A DNA stretch of 31,848 nucleotides from contig JAZUDB010000134.1 of NCBI GenBank assembly GCA_045639385.1, positions 1-31,848 on the forward strand, read 5' to 3'. The DNA is from Anaerovoracaceae bacterium (GTDB lineage Bacteria; Bacillota; Clostridia; Peptostreptococcales; Anaerovoracaceae). Within the stretch, counting starts at the first letter, position 1. Each line of letters opens with the position of its first letter. The notes under the pieces were generated by a model. That model ran no database searches and had not been told where the DNA came from. It saw only the letters and a list, made by a program, of their open reading frames with translations. A program made the translations under genes and the position numbers. Positions 6,091 to 29,669 of this stretch are shown piece after piece.

Positions 6091-7011
6091 TTACTTCTTC
6101 CGGCGGGAGTAGATGTCGTCGATGCGTTTTAAAAAGAGATAGTCGAAATCCCGGGAATGCCGGCCGGTCAGGCTGCGGATTTCCTCGGTTTCGAAGCTTT
6201 CGCAGGGGCAGATCCGGTACCGCTTAAAAAGGTTCAGCTTCCGGTTGTTGAAGCGGGGTTCGAATACCACCACCGGCAGGAAGGTGGCCTTTGCCTCCGG
6301 ATCTTTCAGCACTCTGTGGGCCAGCAGGGTCATGGTGGGATGGATGTGACCCTCGCCCCGGGCGGCAGCCTCGTCGGGGAAGACGGTGGCCTGGCGGGTG
6401 GCGGAGGGCGCCAGCAGAATGATGGCATTTCGTTTGGCCATGTCCTGGGCGGTGCGCATATAGTTTTTCTCGAAAACGGTCTTGTATTTCTGGACCAGGG
6501 CCAGTTTTTCCGGGTTGTCCGCAAAACGGTCCTTCAGTTTGCCCTCGGTTTTGGGGGTGATCATGGGAACGATGGACACGCCCAGACGGGCCAGCTTGGG
6601 AATGTCCGGGGTCAGGGTTTCGTACCAGGGAATATTCACCGGGAAAAGGAATTCCCGGTCCGGATAGGCTTCGAAGGCCAGGTAGGTCAGGCGGAAAATC
6701 TCTCCCAGGGAGGGGTGATTAAAGCCCATGACGATGCAGTGGGCCCGCTGAGGGAATTCGTGCAGCAGCTTGGCCGGTGCGGTGGGCTTTAAAAGATCGC
6801 AGGCCAGGCGGCGCAGTCTGCGGTCGTCCGGTTCCAGGCAGATGGTGTCGATCAGGCCGCGGCAGACCGCTCCCGTGGCGTCCATTTCGTCCAGAAGCTC
6901 TCCGGCGCCGATGCTCCGCAGGAAGGACAGATTGTTTTCGTTCAGCTGAGCAAGAAAGTCCTTGCCGGAGATTTCTTTCAGCTGATCCGCTGTGATGGTG
7001 TTTTTCTGCAT
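6091..7011 (-). CDS. Putative lysophospholipid acyltransferase (PlsC/LPLAT superfamily)-like protein
   Basis: Block I-like FNHPSLGE (HX4E), block III-like LLAPSATR and block IV-like FLPVVV. Confidence 0.6.
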   Translation of the reverse strand: MQKNTITADQLKEISGKDFLAQLNENNLSFLRSIGAGELLDEMDATGAVCRGLIDTICLEPDDRRLRRLACDLLKPTAPAKLLHEFPQRAHCIVMGFNHPSLGEIFRLTYLAFEAYPDREFLFPVNIPWYETLTPDIPKLARLGVSIVPMITPKTEGKLKDRFADNPEKLALVQKYKTVFEKNYMRTAQDMAKRNAIILLAPSATRQATVFPDEAAARGEGHIHPTMTLLAHRVLKDPEAKATFLPVVVFEPRFNNRKLNLFKRYRICPCESFETEEIRSLTGRHSRDFDYLFLKRIDDIYSRRKK

Positions 7012-17453: not shown

Positions 17454-18044
17454 ATGATACAAATACTCAAATATGGAAATACGAATACTTTTTATATTCC
17501 CGGCATTCGGGGCGGTCTGCTGGTGGACACGGATTTTGCGGGCACTCTGCAGGCATTTTACCAGGCGCTCGGGCAGCAGAATCTTCGGCTGGAAGACATT
17601 TCTTACGTGCTGGCCACCCACTACCATCCGGACCACATGGGTCTGATCGGGCAGCTGGCTGAACAGGAGGTAAAGTTGCTGCTGGTAGATGTCCAGAAGG
17701 ATTCCGTGCATTTTTCCGATGCGCTTTTCGACCGGGCAAAGCTTCCGTACATGCCAATCTGCGAAGACCGGGCGAAGCTTATCTCCTGCGAAGAAAGCCG
17801 GGCGTTTCTGGCGGATCTGGGAATTGATGGTGAAATTATTTTTACGCCCAGTCACAGCCGGGACGGGATTTCTTTGATCTTGGATGAGGGCATCTGCATT
17901 GCCGGAGACCTGGAGCCTGCGGACTACATCGAGGCTTACGAAGACAGCGCTTTGCTGCAGGCGGATTGGGCGAAGATAAAGTCCTTCCGCCCTAAAAGGG
18001 TTTATTATTCCCACCGGCCGCCGCAGGAACTGAAGGAATTCTAA
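17454..18044 (+). CDS. Metallo-beta-lactamase-fold hydrolase
   Basis: Motifs LLVDT, ATHYHPDHMG (HxHxDH), TPSHSRD, IAGDL, YYSH. RBS is weak. Confidence 0.85.
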   Translation: MIQILKYGNTNTFYIPGIRGGLLVDTDFAGTLQAFYQALGQQNLRLEDISYVLATHYHPDHMGLIGQLAEQEVKLLLVDVQKDSVHFSDALFDRAKLPYMPICEDRAKLISCEESRAFLADLGIDGEIIFTPSHSRDGISLILDEGICIAGDLEPADYIEAYEDSALLQADWAKIKSFRPKRVYYSHRPPQELKEF

Positions 18045-18120
18045 AAACGGGGACGGTCAGCGAGGGAAAATATCCGAGACAGCCCTTAGAATTGCCGTAT
18101 AACGATCAAAAATACCGGTC

Positions 18121-18316
18121 ATAATGTCAGAATAGATGAAAACAGGGTGTTTTGTCATTATTTTTCTCATTTTTGGCCGAATTTCGAAAAAAAGACCCTC
18201 AAAAAAGCCTGTTTTGAGGGTCATAATGTCAAGAAAGGCTTTTTTCGAGGAAAAAGTCATTGAAAATGAGATCCTTTAATGACAAACGAGGGTAATTTTA
18301 AACCTCGTGACATTAT
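18121..18316. repeat. Array of three spaced dyads AATGWCA-N23-WGWCATT
   Basis: ATAATGTCA 18121 / TGTCATTAT 18153; ATAATGTCA 18223 / AGTCATTGA 18255; TTAATGACA 18276 / TGACATTAT 18308. Every spacer is exactly 23 nt. Confidence 0.85.
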
Positions 18317-18449
18317 ACGTTTTTTGAGAAGTCCGATACGGCAAAAGACGTTTGCAAAACGGCGAAAACGCTGCATTTTTTGCCGGACCGATACAGGCAG
18401 GGCTCATATATTGTATTTTTGATAGAAAATATGAGCTGTTTCTGCAGTT

Positions 18450-20669
18450 TTAAAAGGCTGTGTCCCAGAGCTTCTGCAGCCGTTCGTCCAGACCGCTGTA
18501 GCGGGCCTGGATGCTGTTGTTGTCCACCATGGCGTTGCACACGGCGGGATTGCCCACCAGCACCACGGCCTGCCTGGCCCGGGTAATGGCGGTGTAGATC
18601 AGGTTTCTGGTGGAAAGCATGGGCGGGAAGTTGGTCACCGGCAGAATGATCACCGGAAACTCCGAGCCCTGGCTTTTGTGCACGGTCATGGCGAAGGCGC
18701 TCTCCAGCTCCTCTGCGGAAACGTAGTCGTAGGTGACGTATTTCTCGCCGTCGAAAACCACGCCGATGGTGCCTGTGTCCAAATTGATTTTGTCGATCAG
18801 GCCCATGTCGCCGTTGAAAATGCCGGTGCCGGTGGTGAAGGTGCTCAGGCTCTTCCATTCCATTTGATAATTGTTTTTGATCTGCATCACTTTATCGCCT
18901 TCGCGGAAGATGCGGCTGCCGATTTTCTTTTCGGTTTTGGCCGGCGAGGGCGGGTTTAACGCGGCCTGCAGCGATTCGTTCAAAGAGACGCTGCCCAGGC
19001 CGCCTTTTCTTGTGGGGGTGAGTACCTGAATGTCCGTGTAGGGGTCCAGATCCTTGAAATATGCGGGCAGACGGCGGGTGCACAAATCCAGAATGGTGCT
19101 TAAAATCTCGGCGTCCTTCCCCCGCTGAATCATGAAAAAGTCGGTGTTTTTTTCGTTGTAGGCCGGATACTCTCCGTGGTTGATGCGGTGTGCGTTCACC
19201 ACGATGGCGCTTTCCTGGGCCTGGCGGAAGATGTCCGTCAGCCGCTCGGCCTGGATCAGTCCCGTGGCCAGAATGTCCTTGAGCACGTTGCCCGCGCCCA
19301 CGGGAGGAAGCTGGTCCGCGTCGCCCACCAGGATCAGGCGGGTGCCGGGTTTGACCGCGTTCAGCAGGGCCTCGAACAGCAGGATGTCCACCATGGACAC
19401 CTCGTCGATGATAATGCAGTCCGCTTCCAGGGGGTTCTCCGCGTTGCGGCCGAAAATCATCCGGTCCTGGCCTTCTTCGTAGGCGTATTCCAGCAGCCGG
19501 TGAATGGTACTGGCAGGAACGCCGGCGGACTGCTGCATGCGCTTGGCCGCCCGGCCCGTGGGAGCCGCCAGCAGGGTTTTCAGGCCCGCGGAGGTATACA
19601 CTGCCAGAATGGTGTTGATAATGGTGGTTTTTCCGGTGCCCGGACCCCCGGTAATGACCAGCACACCGCTGCGCAGACTGGCTTCGATGGCGTGCTTCTG
19701 CTTTTCGGACAGCTGGATGCCGGCGTTTTTCTCCGCCTGCCGGAGCAGGTTTTCCGTGTTGACCGCCACGGCGGAAAGGGGCGTATTGCACAGCTCGTAA
19801 AGCTTGGCTGCCGCGGCCCGCTCGGCCCGGTAGTAGCTGTAGAGCATGTAAATATTGGTGCCGCCGATGACGTCCTTGCAGATTTTGCCGTCCATCACCA
19901 GCCCGAAGGCGCCCTCCGCCACCTGCTCCCGGGTCACGTCCAGGAAAGCTGCGGTTTCTTCCGTCAGCTCGGTTTCCGGCACATAGGTGTGACCCTGGCT
20001 TACCTTTTCGCTGAGCATAAACAGAATGCCGCTCTGAATGCGGAAGGGGGAGTCCGGGGCGATGCCCACGGAGGATGCGATTTTATCCGCTTTGCGGAAG
20101 CCCACGCCGTAGATGTCGGAAATCAGGGCGTAGGGATTTTCTTTTATGATGTCCACCGCACCGGCGCCGTAGGCCCGGTAGAGCTTTAAGGCAACTCCGG
20201 CGGAAATGTCGTATTCGGACAGGGCCAGCACCGTGTCCGCGTATTCCCGGTGTTCCCGGTAGCCCGCGGCAATGGCTTCTGCCTTGGCCGGACCGATGCC
20301 GGGCACGGTCAGCAGACGCTCCGGATTGTCCTGGATGATGCGCAGGGTATCTTTGCCCAGCTTCCGCACGATGGCGGCGGCCATTTTGGGGCCGATGCCC
20401 CGGATCATGCCGGAGCTTAGGAAGGAAACGATGCCGTCTTCGGTGGTGGGTTCCAGCTCCTCTGCGGAGGAGAAGGCAAACTGCTCCCCGTATTTGGGGT
20501 GGGTCTTCCATTCGCCGGTCAGGCGGTAGTGCTTGCCCGCTTTAGGCGCAGCCATACTTCCAACGGCAAAAAACTGCTCTTCGTCGGTTTCAAAGAGCAG
20601 TATGGTGTAAAAGTTTGTTTCGTTGCGGAAGATCAGCTCCCGGGCTGTTCCTTCTTTTTCTTCTTTCAT
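18450..20669 (-). CDS. recD2: ATP-dependent RecD-like DNA helicase (RecD2)
   Basis: N-terminal HhH motifs (GIGPKMA, PGIGPAKA), TGGPGTGKTT, IIDEVSMVD, LVGDADQLPPVG and TVHKSQGSEF. Confidence 0.95.
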   Translation of the reverse strand: MKEEKEGTARELIFRNETNFYTILLFETDEEQFFAVGSMAAPKAGKHYRLTGEWKTHPKYGEQFAFSSAEELEPTTEDGIVSFLSSGMIRGIGPKMAAAIVRKLGKDTLRIIQDNPERLLTVPGIGPAKAEAIAAGYREHREYADTVLALSEYDISAGVALKLYRAYGAGAVDIIKENPYALISDIYGVGFRKADKIASSVGIAPDSPFRIQSGILFMLSEKVSQGHTYVPETELTEETAAFLDVTREQVAEGAFGLVMDGKICKDVIGGTNIYMLYSYYRAERAAAAKLYELCNTPLSAVAVNTENLLRQAEKNAGIQLSEKQKHAIEASLRSGVLVITGGPGTGKTTIINTILAVYTSAGLKTLLAAPTGRAAKRMQQSAGVPASTIHRLLEYAYEEGQDRMIFGRNAENPLEADCIIIDEVSMVDILLFEALLNAVKPGTRLILVGDADQLPPVGAGNVLKDILATGLIQAERLTDIFRQAQESAIVVNAHRINHGEYPAYNEKNTDFFMIQRGKDAEILSTILDLCTRRLPAYFKDLDPYTDIQVLTPTRKGGLGSVSLNESLQAALNPPSPAKTEKKIGSRIFREGDKVMQIKNNYQMEWKSLSTFTTGTGIFNGDMGLIDKINLDTGTIGVVFDGEKYVTYDYVSAEELESAFAMTVHKSQGSEFPVIILPVTNFPPMLSTRNLIYTAITRARQAVVLVGNPAVCNAMVDNNSIQARYSGLDERLQKLWDTAF

Positions 20670-28310: not shown

Positions 28311-29159
28311 CTAAGAAAGCTCGCAGGGAAGGGGACTCTTCGCTTGGAGAATTGCATCAAGAATGCATTCTGCTGTGTCGGCGGCGAAAGGCACTGCCGT
28401 TGTTTCGAAGCTGAAGAACAGATTTTTTCCCGGCGCGAGTCCCGCTTTCAAATAGCGGTTTATTTTTCGGCAGGCATCGTCGCAGTAATCCGGCGTATCC
28501 ATCAGTCCGAAATGCTCCCAGTAGATCAATTTCTTTGTTCTTGGGTGAAGAATGGTGAAGTCCGGGTAGACGGGCGGCTTGCCGTCGTTCAGGTCTAAAC
28601 GGCATTCATTTCGATAAAGAATTCCCCGGCTGAAAAGCAAATCCGAAATAATCATTTCCGATTTGGATCGAACGGGGTATCCTTTTTTTGTTTCTAAAAT
28701 CAGGGCATCACTGTGGTAAGGATTTGCGGGATAGCTTGCTTCTGCCCAGCTTTGATCCAAAGCGGCGCCGGTTTGTACCAGATTTGCATTGAGTTTCTGC
28801 AGCTCCGGCGGAAAAGTTTCCGCAATTTCTGCAGCGTCCCTGCCGCTGTGTAGCTGAAGAAAGCTGTTTGCTGCCGACAAGTTTTTCTTCATGATCGGCA
28901 GCGCGTTTTCTGCCAACCGCTTGTTTGAATACTGCCGCAGCTGCCGGGAATTTCTCCGGATATAGGTCGTGGTTCTGCGGTTTTGATTGGTTTGCCGGAC
29001 TGCGTAGTAATATTTGCTGCCGCGCTGTTCGATTTTCAAGTGCCCCGCCGGGGCGTTTTCAAGGACCTTCTCCATTTGCGAAATTTTGGATACCAGTGTA
29101 TCGCGATATTTTTGAATTAATGCGATGTAGTACATAAGAGTTTTGTGATTGCTTTGCAC
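28311..29159 (-). CDS. Uncharacterised protein with a C-terminal PD-(D/E)xK (Vsr/DUF559-like) nuclease domain
   Basis: VRSKSEMIISDLL, YRNECRL, VYPDFTI and YWEHFGLMD match restriction-fold catalytic spacing. N-terminal helical segment plus a basic/aromatic beta-hairpin. Start is GTG 29159 or ATG 29135. Confidence 0.8.
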   Translation of the reverse strand: MQSNHKTLMYYIALIQKYRDTLVSKISQMEKVLENAPAGHLKIEQRGSKYYYAVRQTNQNRRTTTYIRRNSRQLRQYSNKRLAENALPIMKKNLSAANSFLQLHSGRDAAEIAETFPPELQKLNANLVQTGAALDQSWAEASYPANPYHSDALILETKKGYPVRSKSEMIISDLLFSRGILYRNECRLDLNDGKPPVYPDFTILHPRTKKLIYWEHFGLMDTPDYCDDACRKINRYLKAGLAPGKNLFFSFETTAVPFAADTAECILDAILQAKSPLPCELS

Positions 29160-29280: not shown

Positions 29281-29669
29281 TTCACCCAGTGTCGCTTTAT
29301 GTATGCGGGTGGGACCATGTAAAAGAGGATGGCTTCACCCAATAAGCGGGCTCGCATTCAATTGGGACCACATTTTGGGCATGATTTGGATGATTTTTCA
29401 CCCAACGAGTGGTTCATGCGGTGCTTGGACACATAAAAAGACCCTTGGACTTGCCAAGAGTCTCTAAAATCTATGCCCAATCTATTGTGTCTCCGCATGA
29501 TGGGTGAAGGCTTCGAAAAATAATAGTAGAATTCTGTGCCCACAGGGGCCTTTTAATGCAGTTTGGGTGAAACGCGCAGGGTTGCAATTGTAAACTAATA
29601 TGCCCACCGAAGTCGCCCGATACAGTTTGGGTGAAAAGCAATGGCTTGCAATCGTAAAATCTATGTCCA
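29281..29669. repeat. Bidirectional array of six TTCACCCA-N21-TGG(G/A) dyads plus one half unit
   Basis: Plus orientation TTCACCCA at 29281, 29334, 29397, each followed after exactly 21 nt by TGGGAC/TGGGAC/TGGACA. Minus orientation TGCCCA at 29474, 29537, 29601, each followed after 21 nt by TGGGTGAA (29501, 29564, 29628). Half unit TGTCCA at 29664. Confidence 0.92.

What the first reader, a model, noticed from the sequence alone, without database searches (positions are those of the whole stretch)
18117..18316. Orphan non-coding array of three AATGWCA-N23-WGWCATT dyads
Seen: three inverted-box pairs, each with exactly 23 nt of unrelated spacer, centred at 18141, 18243 and 18296 (spacing 102 and 53). 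There is a 13-bp exact direct repeat GGTCATAATGTCA (18117 and 18219) and an 11-bp-stem hairpin GACCCTCAAAA/TTTTGAGGGTC between units 1 and 2. It sits between convergent genes, where no promoter is needed, so a simple transcription-factor operator is a poor explanation. Inference: binding or recombination sites for a dimeric protein acting in trans, or a relic of a nuclease-plus-array locus like the one at 28.3-29.7 kb.
Basis: partly seen in the sequence, partly recalled or inferred. Interest (0 to 1): 0.66.

Follow-up and report, generated by a model that had tools for sequence, protein, structure and literature searches.

The report
Gene-less copy of nuclease-linked dyad repeat
The three dyads are real and form one copy of a roughly 290-bp repeat scattered through this gut bacterium's genome; the same boxes, 23-bp spacing and 53/102-bp layout sit at the start of an uncharacterised nuclease gene on another contig, which suggests an undescribed family of nuclease-linked selfish repeats in Clostridia.

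Summary
AATGWCA-N23-WGWCATT dyads lie at 18123-18159, 18225-18261 and 18278-18314; shuffles expect none.

The array is not unique. It is one of six full copies, plus one truncated copy, of a ~290-bp quasi-palindromic element (window 18065-18353). Across copies the boxes are 97.5% identical and the interiors 70%.

The element is absent from the same locus in a sister genome and in one metagenome strain, and present in three others.

The same dyads, with mirrored 53/102 spacing, form the leader of a 266-aa gene on contig C29. Its last dyad covers the probable start codon. The protein has a TnsA/Vsr-like PD-(D/E)xK domain and no Pfam match. Homologues in other genomes keep N23 dyads, but with locus-specific boxes. 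Other paralogues in this genome each have their own dispersed box family.

Best reading (about 0.6): a gene-less, MITE/REPIN-like array of binding sites for the cognate nuclease. Binding, cleavage and mobility are inferred, not shown. RNA-structure and in-situ-relic readings are poorly supported.

No description of this system was found in four full-text searches. I class it as a new variant of a known kind, interest about 0.68.

The parts
18065..18353 (.). Whole repeat element, called family A here. It is about 290 bp and quasi-palindromic. It is one of six full copies in this genome.
   Evidence: An nhmmer profile of the copies matches 18065-18353 with E 5e-88. The same profile hits C13, C171, C68, C32 and C82, and a truncated copy on C117. 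The element also matches its own reverse complement (E 1.5e-8).
18085..18122 (+). Conserved left end. It includes TTGCCGTAT (18092-18100), the core of a terminal inverted repeat, and AAAATACCGGTCAT.
   Evidence: Mean pairwise identity among copies is 82%. The 9-bp core is perfectly complementary to 18336-18344 (I17).
18123..18159 (.). Dyad 1: AATGTCA-N23-TGTCATT.
   Evidence: The boxes are invariant or nearly so in 7 copies.
18194..18222 (-). Central 11-bp-stem hairpin. On the minus strand it is followed by T7, so it looks like an intrinsic terminator for recD2.
   Evidence: Terminator scan. Folding gives -15.9 kcal/mol, z -3.8. There is no covariation support and the T-run is not conserved in other copies.
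18225..18261 (.). Dyad 2: AATGTCA-N23-AGTCATT.
18278..18314 (.). Dyad 3: AATGACA-N23-TGACATT.
   Evidence: As RNA the local hairpin is weak (z -1.5).
18315..18353 (+). Conserved right end: a T-run, then GAGAAGTCCGATACGGCAAAAG, which includes ATACGGCAA (18336-18344).
   Evidence: 81-83% identity among copies. It is the inverted-repeat partner of 18092-18100.
18402..18436 (.). Solo dyad of a different family, called D here: GCTCATA-N21-TATGAGC.
   Evidence: The pattern gives 28 dyads in this genome, all with N21. Arrays of them lie next to the nuclease paralogue on C63/C70.
18053..18448 (.). Polymorphic block that contains the element. It is absent or replaced in relatives.
   Evidence: A contig of metagenome run X1 joins 18052 to 18449 with 40 other bases between. 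X2, X3 and X6 carry the element. X3 also shows a joint from 18032 to 18447. Sister genome G003 has 152 unrelated bp between flanks that are 96-98% identical.
28311..29159 (-). Paralogous nuclease gene (P0001). It is not the cognate of this array.
   Evidence: It is 34% identical to P0002 over the C-terminal 120 aa. It adjoins the TTCACCCA-N21-TGGG array at 29281-29669.

Best explanation
**What it is.** The array is a gene-less, non-autonomous member of a family of nuclease-linked repeat elements.

**The sites.** Its six 7-9-bp boxes (ATAATGWCA) are arranged as three inverted pairs with a fixed 23-bp interior. I read them as double-stranded-DNA binding sites for a dimer of one protein. That protein is the 266-aa product of contig C29:6665-7465 (P0002). 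It has an N-terminal helical hairpin plus a small beta-sheet, and a C-terminal TnsA/Vsr-like PD-(D/E)xK nuclease domain.

**At the gene.** At its own gene the same three dyads lie between the promoter and the coding region. The last one covers the probable start codon. This most likely gives negative autoregulation.

**The gene-less copies.** These keep the binding sites and a ~35-bp imperfect terminal inverted repeat. They sit in, or replace, terminator-containing intergenic DNA, here between convergent genes. They are gained and lost between strains.

**Shown:**
- the dispersal of the repeat family;
- selective conservation of the boxes;
- presence/absence polymorphism at this locus;
- the shared site grammar between this array and the nuclease leader;
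- co-variation of box sequence with nuclease paralogue or orthologue.

**Inferred:**
- that the protein binds the boxes, as a dimer and on DNA;
- that it cleaves;
- that cleavage, followed by recombination or repair, is what spreads or maintains the arrays.
For: 1. **Dispersed family.** There are six full copies and one truncated copy in 1.68 Mb, and one more in sister genome G003.
2. **Selective conservation.** Boxes are 97.5% identical and interiors 70% across 7 copies.
3. **Polymorphism.** The element is missing at this locus in G003 and in run X1, and present in X2, X3 and X6. The C68 and C171 copies are also missing at the orthologous G003 loci.
4. **Same grammar at the nuclease gene.**
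   - C29 has dyads at 6539, 6592 (one mismatch) and 6694. Their spacing of 53 and 102 mirrors the 102 and 53 here. All have N23, and the last holds an in-frame ATG.
   - A 57%-identical homologue from another metagenome has AATGTCA-N23 dyads spaced 52 and 102, the last on its start codon.
   - The G017 and G018 orthologues carry the exact dyad at +17 to +53.
5. **Co-variation.**
   - Orthologues in G005, G002 and G011 have 3-4 leader dyads with about N23 but with different boxes: ACTGACA, GATGACA and TTACTACA. The box is the same within each locus.
   - In this genome, paralogues adjoin TTCACCCA, TGGTCCCA, GCTCATA or TTCCCCCA boxes. TTCACCCA and GCTCATA are clearly dispersed families; TGGTCCCA and TTCCCCCA gave only 2-4 further dyads.
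6. **Family-wide property.** In 24 of 51 homologue loci from other Clostridia, at least two exact dyads share a 7-mer in -450 to +70. The figure is 0 of 51 in each of three controls.
7. **Co-occurrence.** GCTCATA-N21 dyads number 28 in G000 and 35 in G003, and 0 in the other 18 genomes of the genus. Their nuclease has a close (96%) orthologue only in G003.
8. **Other genomes.** The dyad ATTGACA-N23-TGTCAAT, found on the nuclease leader, occurs 24, 16 and 14 times dispersed in three other genomes. The reversed-pattern control gives 0.
9. **Fold.** The AlphaFold2 model has pLDDT 91. Its C-terminal domain aligns to TnsA and to the I-Bth0305I catalytic domain, both at Z 8.9. The acidic and basic residues E164, D194, E208 and K225 are invariant.
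Against: - No binding, cleavage or transcription data exist. No RNA runs were found.
- No target-site duplication or clean insertion boundary was found. The empty alleles are replacements, not precise excisions.
- The copies are only 76-84% alike, so no recent movement of this family is shown.
- Sister genome G003 keeps one family-A copy, but no P0002-type gene was found there. That assembly is 77% complete.
- A PD-(D/E)xK nuclease alone has no known strand-transfer activity, so dispersal to unrelated loci lacks a known mechanism.
- Most leader dyads lie in the transcribed 5' region, so an RNA target is not excluded.
- G000 and G003 are close kin, so the co-occurrence test is in effect one event.
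Confidence: 0.6

Rival explanations
1. RNA-level element. The array, like the nuclease leader, is transcribed. Each dyad forms a hairpin that the nuclease-family protein binds or cuts. The model would be a cis-regulatory leader or a type III toxin-antitoxin-like RNA, with the gene-less copies acting as small-RNA decoys.
For: - In the P0002 clade most dyads lie downstream of the promoter, and one covers the start codon.
- Several orthologues have perfectly complementary 7-8-bp boxes.
- The whole element can fold as a long hairpin.
Against: - The local unit hairpins are weak as RNA (z -0.9 to -1.9).
- Units 1-3 carry conserved central T-T or A-A mismatches.
- There is no covariation. The RNAalifold covariation term is +2.4, and the pair counts are no better than shuffles.
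- The box sequence itself is conserved, not merely its complementarity.
- No Rfam family matches. No promoter was found in the element.
Confidence: 0.12
2. Domesticated host function without mobility. The protein is a sequence-specific regulator or chromosome-organising factor. The dispersed arrays are its regulon, decoy or insulator sites, and incidentally supply terminators between convergent genes.
For: - The boxes stay intact in copies that are about 20% diverged.
- The central hairpin is terminator-like for recD2 here.
- The arrays replace terminator-bearing intergenic DNA.
Against: - Nuclease copy number ranges from 0 to 9 per genome within one genus.
- Each paralogue has private box families, and these are lineage-specific.
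- Many arrays sit at contig ends, as multi-copy repeats do.
- The catalytic residues are invariant.
- The T-run of the hairpin is not conserved between copies.
Confidence: 0.15
3. In-situ relic. A nuclease gene once stood here next to its array and was deleted, leaving the dyads.
For: The array has the same three-dyad geometry as the nuclease leader.
Against: - tblastn finds no nuclease remnant in 18045-18449. The small ORFs there have no family hits.
- Six copies share the same ends and central hairpin at unrelated loci.
- Orthologous loci in G003 and X1 hold short intergenic DNA without a gene.
Confidence: 0.05
4. Neutral repeated DNA whose boxes have no ligand. The apparent conservation is only shared ancestry.
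For: The interiors also retain about 70% identity, and there are almost no indels anywhere in the element.
Against: - The contrast of 97.5% against 70% identity.
- The same box and N23 recur at nuclease genes of other species with unrelated interiors.
- 24 of 51 loci against 0 of 51 in controls.
Confidence: 0.03

Closest known systems
REP/BIME and REPIN elements with their RAYT gene (REP-associated tyrosine transposase)
   Same: - Short inverted boxes with a less conserved interior.
- Arranged in alternating orientation in intergenic DNA.
- Tens of copies per genome.
- Each sequence family is paired with a gene that is itself flanked by the cognate repeats (PMC2817692 and PMC3116915, abstracts seen).
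   Different: - The associated protein here has a PD-(D/E)xK (TnsA/Vsr-like) fold, not an HUH/Y1 transposase fold. The only Y1 fragment in the genome has no boxes near it.
- The boxes are 7-9 bp with a rigid 21-23-bp interior, not 20-40-nt GC-rich palindromes.
- There are several paralogues per genome, each with its own box family.
Bacterial MITEs (for example Correia, RUP, ERIC)
   Same: - Under 500 bp, multi-copy, intergenic.
- Terminal inverted repeats.
- Presence/absence polymorphism between strains.
- Can carry terminator-like hairpins.
   Different: - No DDE-transposase parent element shares the ends.
- No target-site duplication was found.
- The conserved parts are internal, phased dyads rather than only the termini.
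Free-standing homing endonuclease genes; the EDxHD/Vsr-like enzyme I-Bth0305I
   Same: - The nuclease domain superposes on the I-Bth0305I catalytic domain (Z 8.9).
- I-Bth0305I is multidomain and homodimeric, and footprints about 60 bp (PMC3239194).
- The genes here sit as indels between conserved housekeeping genes, and the whole intergenic tract is replaced, as expected for spread by recombination.
   Different: - Not in an intron or intein.
- No sequence similarity to any PDB chain.
- Homing endonucleases are not known to leave dispersed gene-less arrays of their sites, or to carry such arrays on their own leaders.
TnsA of Tn7, and the multi-site ends of Tn7
   Same: - The C-terminal domain aligns to TnsA (1t0f_A, Z 8.9, 113 residues).
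- From general knowledge, Tn7 ends carry several spaced protein-binding sites.
   Different: - No tnsB or tnsC neighbours.
- The sites are inverted pairs, not same-sense repeats at two ends.
- The gene stands alone.
Type III toxin-antitoxin loci (ToxIN)
   Same: A repeat array immediately upstream of a nuclease gene.
   Different: - ToxI is a tandem direct repeat that is transcribed and processed (general knowledge).
- Here the units are inverted dyads, the local RNA structure is weak, and gene-less copies are dispersed.

Membership tests
REPIN/RAYT system | The associated gene encodes an HUH/Y1 (IS200-like) transposase. | tested here: not met
   The associated protein has a PD-(D/E)xK fold. 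The only PF01797 hit in the genome (C4:6090-6329) has no boxes nearby.
REPIN/RAYT system | Dispersed intergenic inverted repeats whose sequence family matches the repeats flanking the gene. | tested here: met
MITE | Terminal inverted repeats, small size and many copies. | tested here: met
   A 9-bp perfect core lies within imperfect ends of about 35 bp. The element is about 290 bp and has six full copies.
MITE | Target-site duplication at the insertion. | tested here: inconclusive
   Comparing filled with empty alleles shows replacement of the intergenic DNA, not a clean insertion.
MITE | An autonomous parent with a DDE transposase and the same ends. | tested here: not met
   The only gene carrying the boxes is the nuclease-family gene on C29. 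It has no transposase neighbours.
TnsA / Tn7-like transposon | PD-(D/E)xK catalytic domain of TnsA type. | tested here: met
   Structural alignment gives Z 8.9 to 1t0f_A. E, D, E and K are invariant. This is at fold level only; no sequence family matches.
TnsA / Tn7-like transposon | Operon with tnsB (DDE) and tnsC. | tested here: not met
   The neighbouring genes are housekeeping or unrelated.
EDxHD (Vsr-like) homing endonucleases | Vsr-like nuclease fold. | tested here: met
   Z 8.9 to 3r3p_B over 92 residues.
EDxHD (Vsr-like) homing endonucleases | [quoted passage not shown] | tested here: not met
   The genes are free-standing and intergenic. The conserved motif is W-E-H-x-G. No sequence hit to PDB chains.
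Structured non-coding RNA | Covarying base pairs, or a match to a known RNA family. | tested here: not met
   No Rfam hit. No covariation beyond shuffles.
Intrinsic terminator | GC-rich hairpin followed by a U-run, conserved across copies. | tested here: inconclusive
   Met for this copy on the minus strand. The U-run is absent in several other copies.

The most novel reading that the evidence does not exclude
Clostridia carry a previously undescribed class of selfish element. It consists of solitary TnsA/Vsr-fold nucleases, a family of at least 3,000 clusters at 50% identity with no Pfam model. Each recognises its own dyads of 21-23-bp interior, autoregulates through them, and seeds REPIN-like gene-less dyad arrays across the chromosome. 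Nuclease specificity and box sequence diversify together among the paralogues within one genome.
Probability: 0.45. Interest if true: 0.82.

Novelty: new variant of a known kind. Interest (0 to 1): 0.68.

Why it matters
**An unassigned protein family.** If the reading holds, a large unannotated family gets a role and a ligand. The family has 3,157 clusters at 50% identity with E at most 1e-30, and 0-12 copies per genome in gut and rumen Clostridia.

**Unexplained repeat DNA.** It would also explain a noticeable share of the intergenic repeats that fragment MAG assemblies of these organisms.

**A second, independent case.** It would be a second instance, after REPIN-RAYT, of short dyad repeats living with a cognate enzyme, but built on a different enzyme fold.

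**A natural specificity series.** The many box-protein pairs (AATGWCA, ACTGACA, GATGACA, TTACTACA, ATTGACA, GCTCATA, TTCACCCA and others) could be used to work out how the protein reads DNA.

**Testable now.** Cultured carriers exist: Anaerovoracaceae bacterium 42-11, Senimuribacter sp. DSM 106208 and Zhenpiania hominis BX12.

Tried and rejected
- **Small hydrophobic peptide (type I toxin-like).** An ATG inside unit 1 opens a short ORF (MKTxxFVIIFLIF...). Rejected: no conserved Shine-Dalgarno, only 8 hydrophobic residues, different stops in every copy, and no ATG in the C82 copy. No Pfam hit for the 47-aa and 67-aa ORFs.
- **Known RNA families and tRNAs.** None found.
- **Sigma-70 promoter in the element.** The scan found one weak site, which is what shuffles expect.
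- **Known transcription-factor operators** (CtsR, Fur/PerR, LexA, Spo0A boxes). Considered from memory; neither sequence nor spacing fits. Not formally tested.
- **Covariation for the central hairpin and the inner stem of unit 3.** Not better than shuffles.
- **Target-site duplications.** Sought by comparing filled and empty alleles at three loci. None was convincing. The 40-nt filler in run X1 contains GCGAATTCC and AGTCCGC, which resemble the element's two ends, but this cannot be interpreted.
- **Pfam, NCBIfam, PHROGs and PDB sequence searches** for the protein. Nothing significant.
- **Phage and plasmid collections.** Only partial nuclease-domain hits, some fused to AAA ATPases.
- **RNA sequencing runs.** None found that hold the locus.
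- **Literature.** Four full-text searches found no description of this system.
- **Ends of the TTCACCCA family.** I tried to define them from near-identical copies, but most lie at contig ends.

Full report
**1. The observation**

The window holds exactly three matches to AATGWCA-N23-WGWCATT, at 18123-18159, 18225-18261 and 18278-18314. One hundred dinucleotide shuffles gave none. Five of the six AATGWCA heptamers in the window lie here. The 13-bp direct repeat, the 11-bp-stem hairpin at 18194-18222 and the convergent flanking genes are all as described. The flanking genes are an MBL-fold hydrolase at 17454-18044 (+) and RecD2/YrrC at 18450-20669 (-). There is no Rfam family or tRNA in the window.

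**2. The array is one copy of a dispersed repeat**

The window's genome is a MAG of 1.68 Mb in 217 contigs, 51.5% GC, 87% complete. Runs that hold the locus are animal gut metagenomes.

- The same three-dyad unit, with the same 102/53 spacing, recurs on contigs C13, C171, C68, C32 and C82. A left half is on C117.
- A profile of the copies delimits the element at window 18065-18353.
- The copies are 76-84% identical.
- Conservation is uneven. The six boxes are 97.5% identical. The three 23-nt interiors are 70%. The ends are about 82%.
- The element is quasi-palindromic. Box 1L is the exact complement of 3R, and 1R of 3L. TCTCATTTT pairs with AAAATGAGA. The ends share a core, TTGCCGTAT / ATACGGCAA.

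**3. DNA site or RNA structure?**

- RNAalifold prefers the long hairpin, but its covariation term is unfavourable (+2.4).
- Pair counts for the central hairpin and for the inner stem of unit 3 are no better than shuffles.
- The three local dyad hairpins are weak as RNA (z -0.9 to -1.9).
- The central hairpin on the minus strand is a good terminator-like structure for recD2 (-15.9 kcal/mol, z -3.8, then U7). Its U-run is not conserved in other copies.
- Units 1 and 2 carry a conserved T-T mismatch, and unit 3 an A-A mismatch.

Conserved sequence, orientation and spacing, with drifting interiors, point to protein sites on duplex DNA rather than to a folded RNA.

**4. The element comes and goes**

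- Sister genome G003 has flanks 96-98% identical to the window. It holds 152 unrelated bp in place of window 18033-18446.
- A metagenome contig from run X1 joins 18052 to 18449 with 40 other bases between.
- Runs X2, X3 and X6 have contigs that carry the element at about 92% identity. X3 also shows a joint from 18032 to 18447.
- The C68 and C171 copies are also missing at the orthologous G003 loci. The C32 copy is shared with G003.
- None of these comparisons shows a clean insertion with a target-site duplication. The whole intergenic tract, and sometimes the last codons of a flanking gene, is replaced.

**5. The cognate gene**

One gene in this genome carries the same dyads: C29:6665-7465 (P0002, 266 aa).

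- Its leader has AATGWCA-N23 dyads starting at 6539, 6592 (one mismatch) and 6694. The spacing is 53 then 102, the mirror image of the array in the window. The last dyad contains an in-frame ATG (M11), which aligns with the start of homologues.
- The 1.25-kb cassette is itself an indel. G003 has an 87-bp terminator-bearing spacer there.
- P0002 is homologous to the window's own gene at 28311-29159 (P0001; 34% over 120 aa).
- Neither protein matches Pfam, NCBIfam or any PDB sequence.
- The AlphaFold2 model is confident (pLDDT 91). Residues 1-125 form a helical hairpin with a three-stranded sheet. Residues 133-266 form a restriction-endonuclease-like domain.
- That domain aligns to TnsA (1t0f_A) and to the I-Bth0305I catalytic domain (3r3p_B), both at Z 8.9. 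Foldseek also gives weak hits to R2 RLE, VRR-NUC and Card1.
- E164, D194, E208, H209 and K225 are invariant.
- The family is large: 3,157 clusters at 50% identity with E at most 1e-30.

**6. The link holds outside this genome**

- A 57%-identical homologue from another metagenome has AATGTCA-N23-TGACATT dyads spaced 112, 52 and 102. The last lies on its start codon, and one lies upstream of the promoter.
- Orthologues in G017 and G018 carry the exact dyad at +17 to +53.
- Orthologues in G005, G002 and G011 keep 3-4 dyads of about N23, but with boxes ACTGACA, GATGACA and TTACTACA respectively. The box is uniform within each locus.
- G017 also has dispersed gene-less dyads whose interiors match its own leader.
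- In 51 homologue loci from other Clostridia, 24 have at least two exact dyads sharing a 7-mer in -450 to +70. The count is 0 of 51 in an upstream control window, a downstream window and shuffles.
- In Anaerovoracaceae bacterium 42-11, an Emergencia MAG and Senimuribacter sp. DSM 106208, the leader dyad ATTGACA-N23-TGTCAAT occurs 24, 16 and 14 times across many contigs. The reversed-pattern control gives 0. These genomes have 7-12 nuclease-family matches each.

**7. Other paralogues, other boxes**

This genome has about seven paralogues.

| Nuclease paralogue | Adjacent boxes | Dispersal in this genome |
|---|---|---|
| P0001 (window 28311-29159) | TTCACCCA-N21-TGGG array at 29281-29669 | at least 12 loci |
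| C117 paralogue | TGGTCCCA | 4 further dyads |
| C63/C70 paralogue | GCTCATA-N21-TATGAGC | 28 dyads at 11 or more loci |
| C108 paralogue | TTCCCCCA | 2 dyads |
| P0002 (C29) | AATGWCA-N23 | 6 full copies plus 1 truncated |

- One solo GCTCATA dyad sits in this same intergenic region at 18402-18436.
- GCTCATA-N21 dyads occur only in G000 (28) and G003 (35) among 20 genomes of the genus. Only these two carry that paralogue, 96% identical and followed by its array in both. G000 and G003 are close kin, so this counts as one event.
- Nuclease copy number in the genus ranges from 0 to 9.

**8. Interpretation**

I read the array as a gene-less member of a nuclease-linked repeat family. Its boxes are binding sites for the P0002-type protein. 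At the gene, the dyads most likely autoregulate expression. The gene-less copies persist as non-autonomous passengers.

The closest known parallels are:
- REPIN/BIME repeats with their RAYT gene, which have the same logic but a different enzyme fold and a different repeat;
- MITEs, which have a similar form but, unlike here, a DDE parent and a target-site duplication;
- free-standing homing endonucleases, which share the fold and the replacement-type indels between housekeeping genes. I-Bth0305I is a multidomain homodimer that footprints about 60 bp (PMC3239194).

Binding, cleavage, dimer state and the route of dispersal are inferences. A lone PD-(D/E)xK nuclease has no known way to integrate DNA at unrelated sites. 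That is the main gap in this reading.

**9. Rivals**

- An RNA-level role is not excluded for the leader dyads, but fits the structure tests poorly.
- A domesticated regulator or insulator role cannot be excluded. It fits poorly with the copy-number variation and with private box families for each paralogue.
- An in-situ relic is contradicted by the absence of any gene remnant and by the shared ends of six copies.

**10. Prior knowledge**

Earlier notes of this scan on the same window had proposed a nuclease-plus-array system at 28.3-29.7 kb and a shared grammar between the two arrays. The present work supports the shared grammar, and identifies the cognate gene of this array as a different paralogue.

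Noticed in passing
window 29281-29669, and at least 12 other loci in the genome (for example C54:1500-1836, C195:7416-7700, C6:20215-20445): A second, larger dispersed family of TTCACCCA-N21-TGGG units. The units switch orientation at the centre, around a hairpin that begins AAAAAGACCCT, like the one in the family-A element. Several near-identical copies end contigs.
   Followed up: partly
window 18402-18436; C70:380-605, C117:18374-18599, C45, C59, C66, C87 and others: A third dispersed family, GCTCATA-N21-TATGAGC. It has 28 dyads in this genome and 35 in G003, and none in the other 18 genomes of the genus. Arrays adjoin the C63/C70 nuclease paralogue.
   Followed up: yes
L006 (C82) about 330-460 and L005 (C32) about 2200-2330; C32 right flank: The left-end segment of the family-A element (GCGAATTCCCGTATGC...AAAATACCG) is repeated about three times in tandem, with a 44-nt period, beside two copies. 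A different ~59-nt unit is repeated about three times on the other side of the C32 copy. Unexplained.
   Followed up: no
G003:C44:2056-4405 (L040): At the locus where this genome has the C171 copy of the element, the sister genome has instead a GCTCATA array plus a blaI/blaR1-like gene pair. The same intergenic spot therefore holds different cargo in different strains.
   Followed up: partly
C117:1789-2583: A nuclease paralogue and its TGGTCCCA array lie between uvrB and uvrA. Another homologue (L043) lies between pth and mfd. Both are insertions between conserved repair genes.
   Followed up: partly
run X1, joint 18052 to 18449: The 40-nt filler of the empty allele contains GCGAATTCC, which matches the start of the element's left-end consensus, and AGTCCGC, which resembles its right end. 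It could be a footprint or a target resemblance.
   Followed up: no
plasmid hits H4-H11 (for example NZ_AP022916.1, Bacillus cereus): The nuclease domain alone is found fused to proteins annotated as AAA family ATPase on large plasmids, at 30-41% identity over about 100 aa.
   Followed up: no
C4:6090-6329: A partial IS200-like Y1 transposase lies at a contig end. It is unrelated to the dyad families.
   Followed up: yes
G017:C47 (L140, about 1170-1190) and G018:C104: The motif CCGTATCGG, the same as the core of the family-A element's ends, lies between the second leader dyad and the ribosome-binding site of the orthologous nuclease genes.
   Followed up: no
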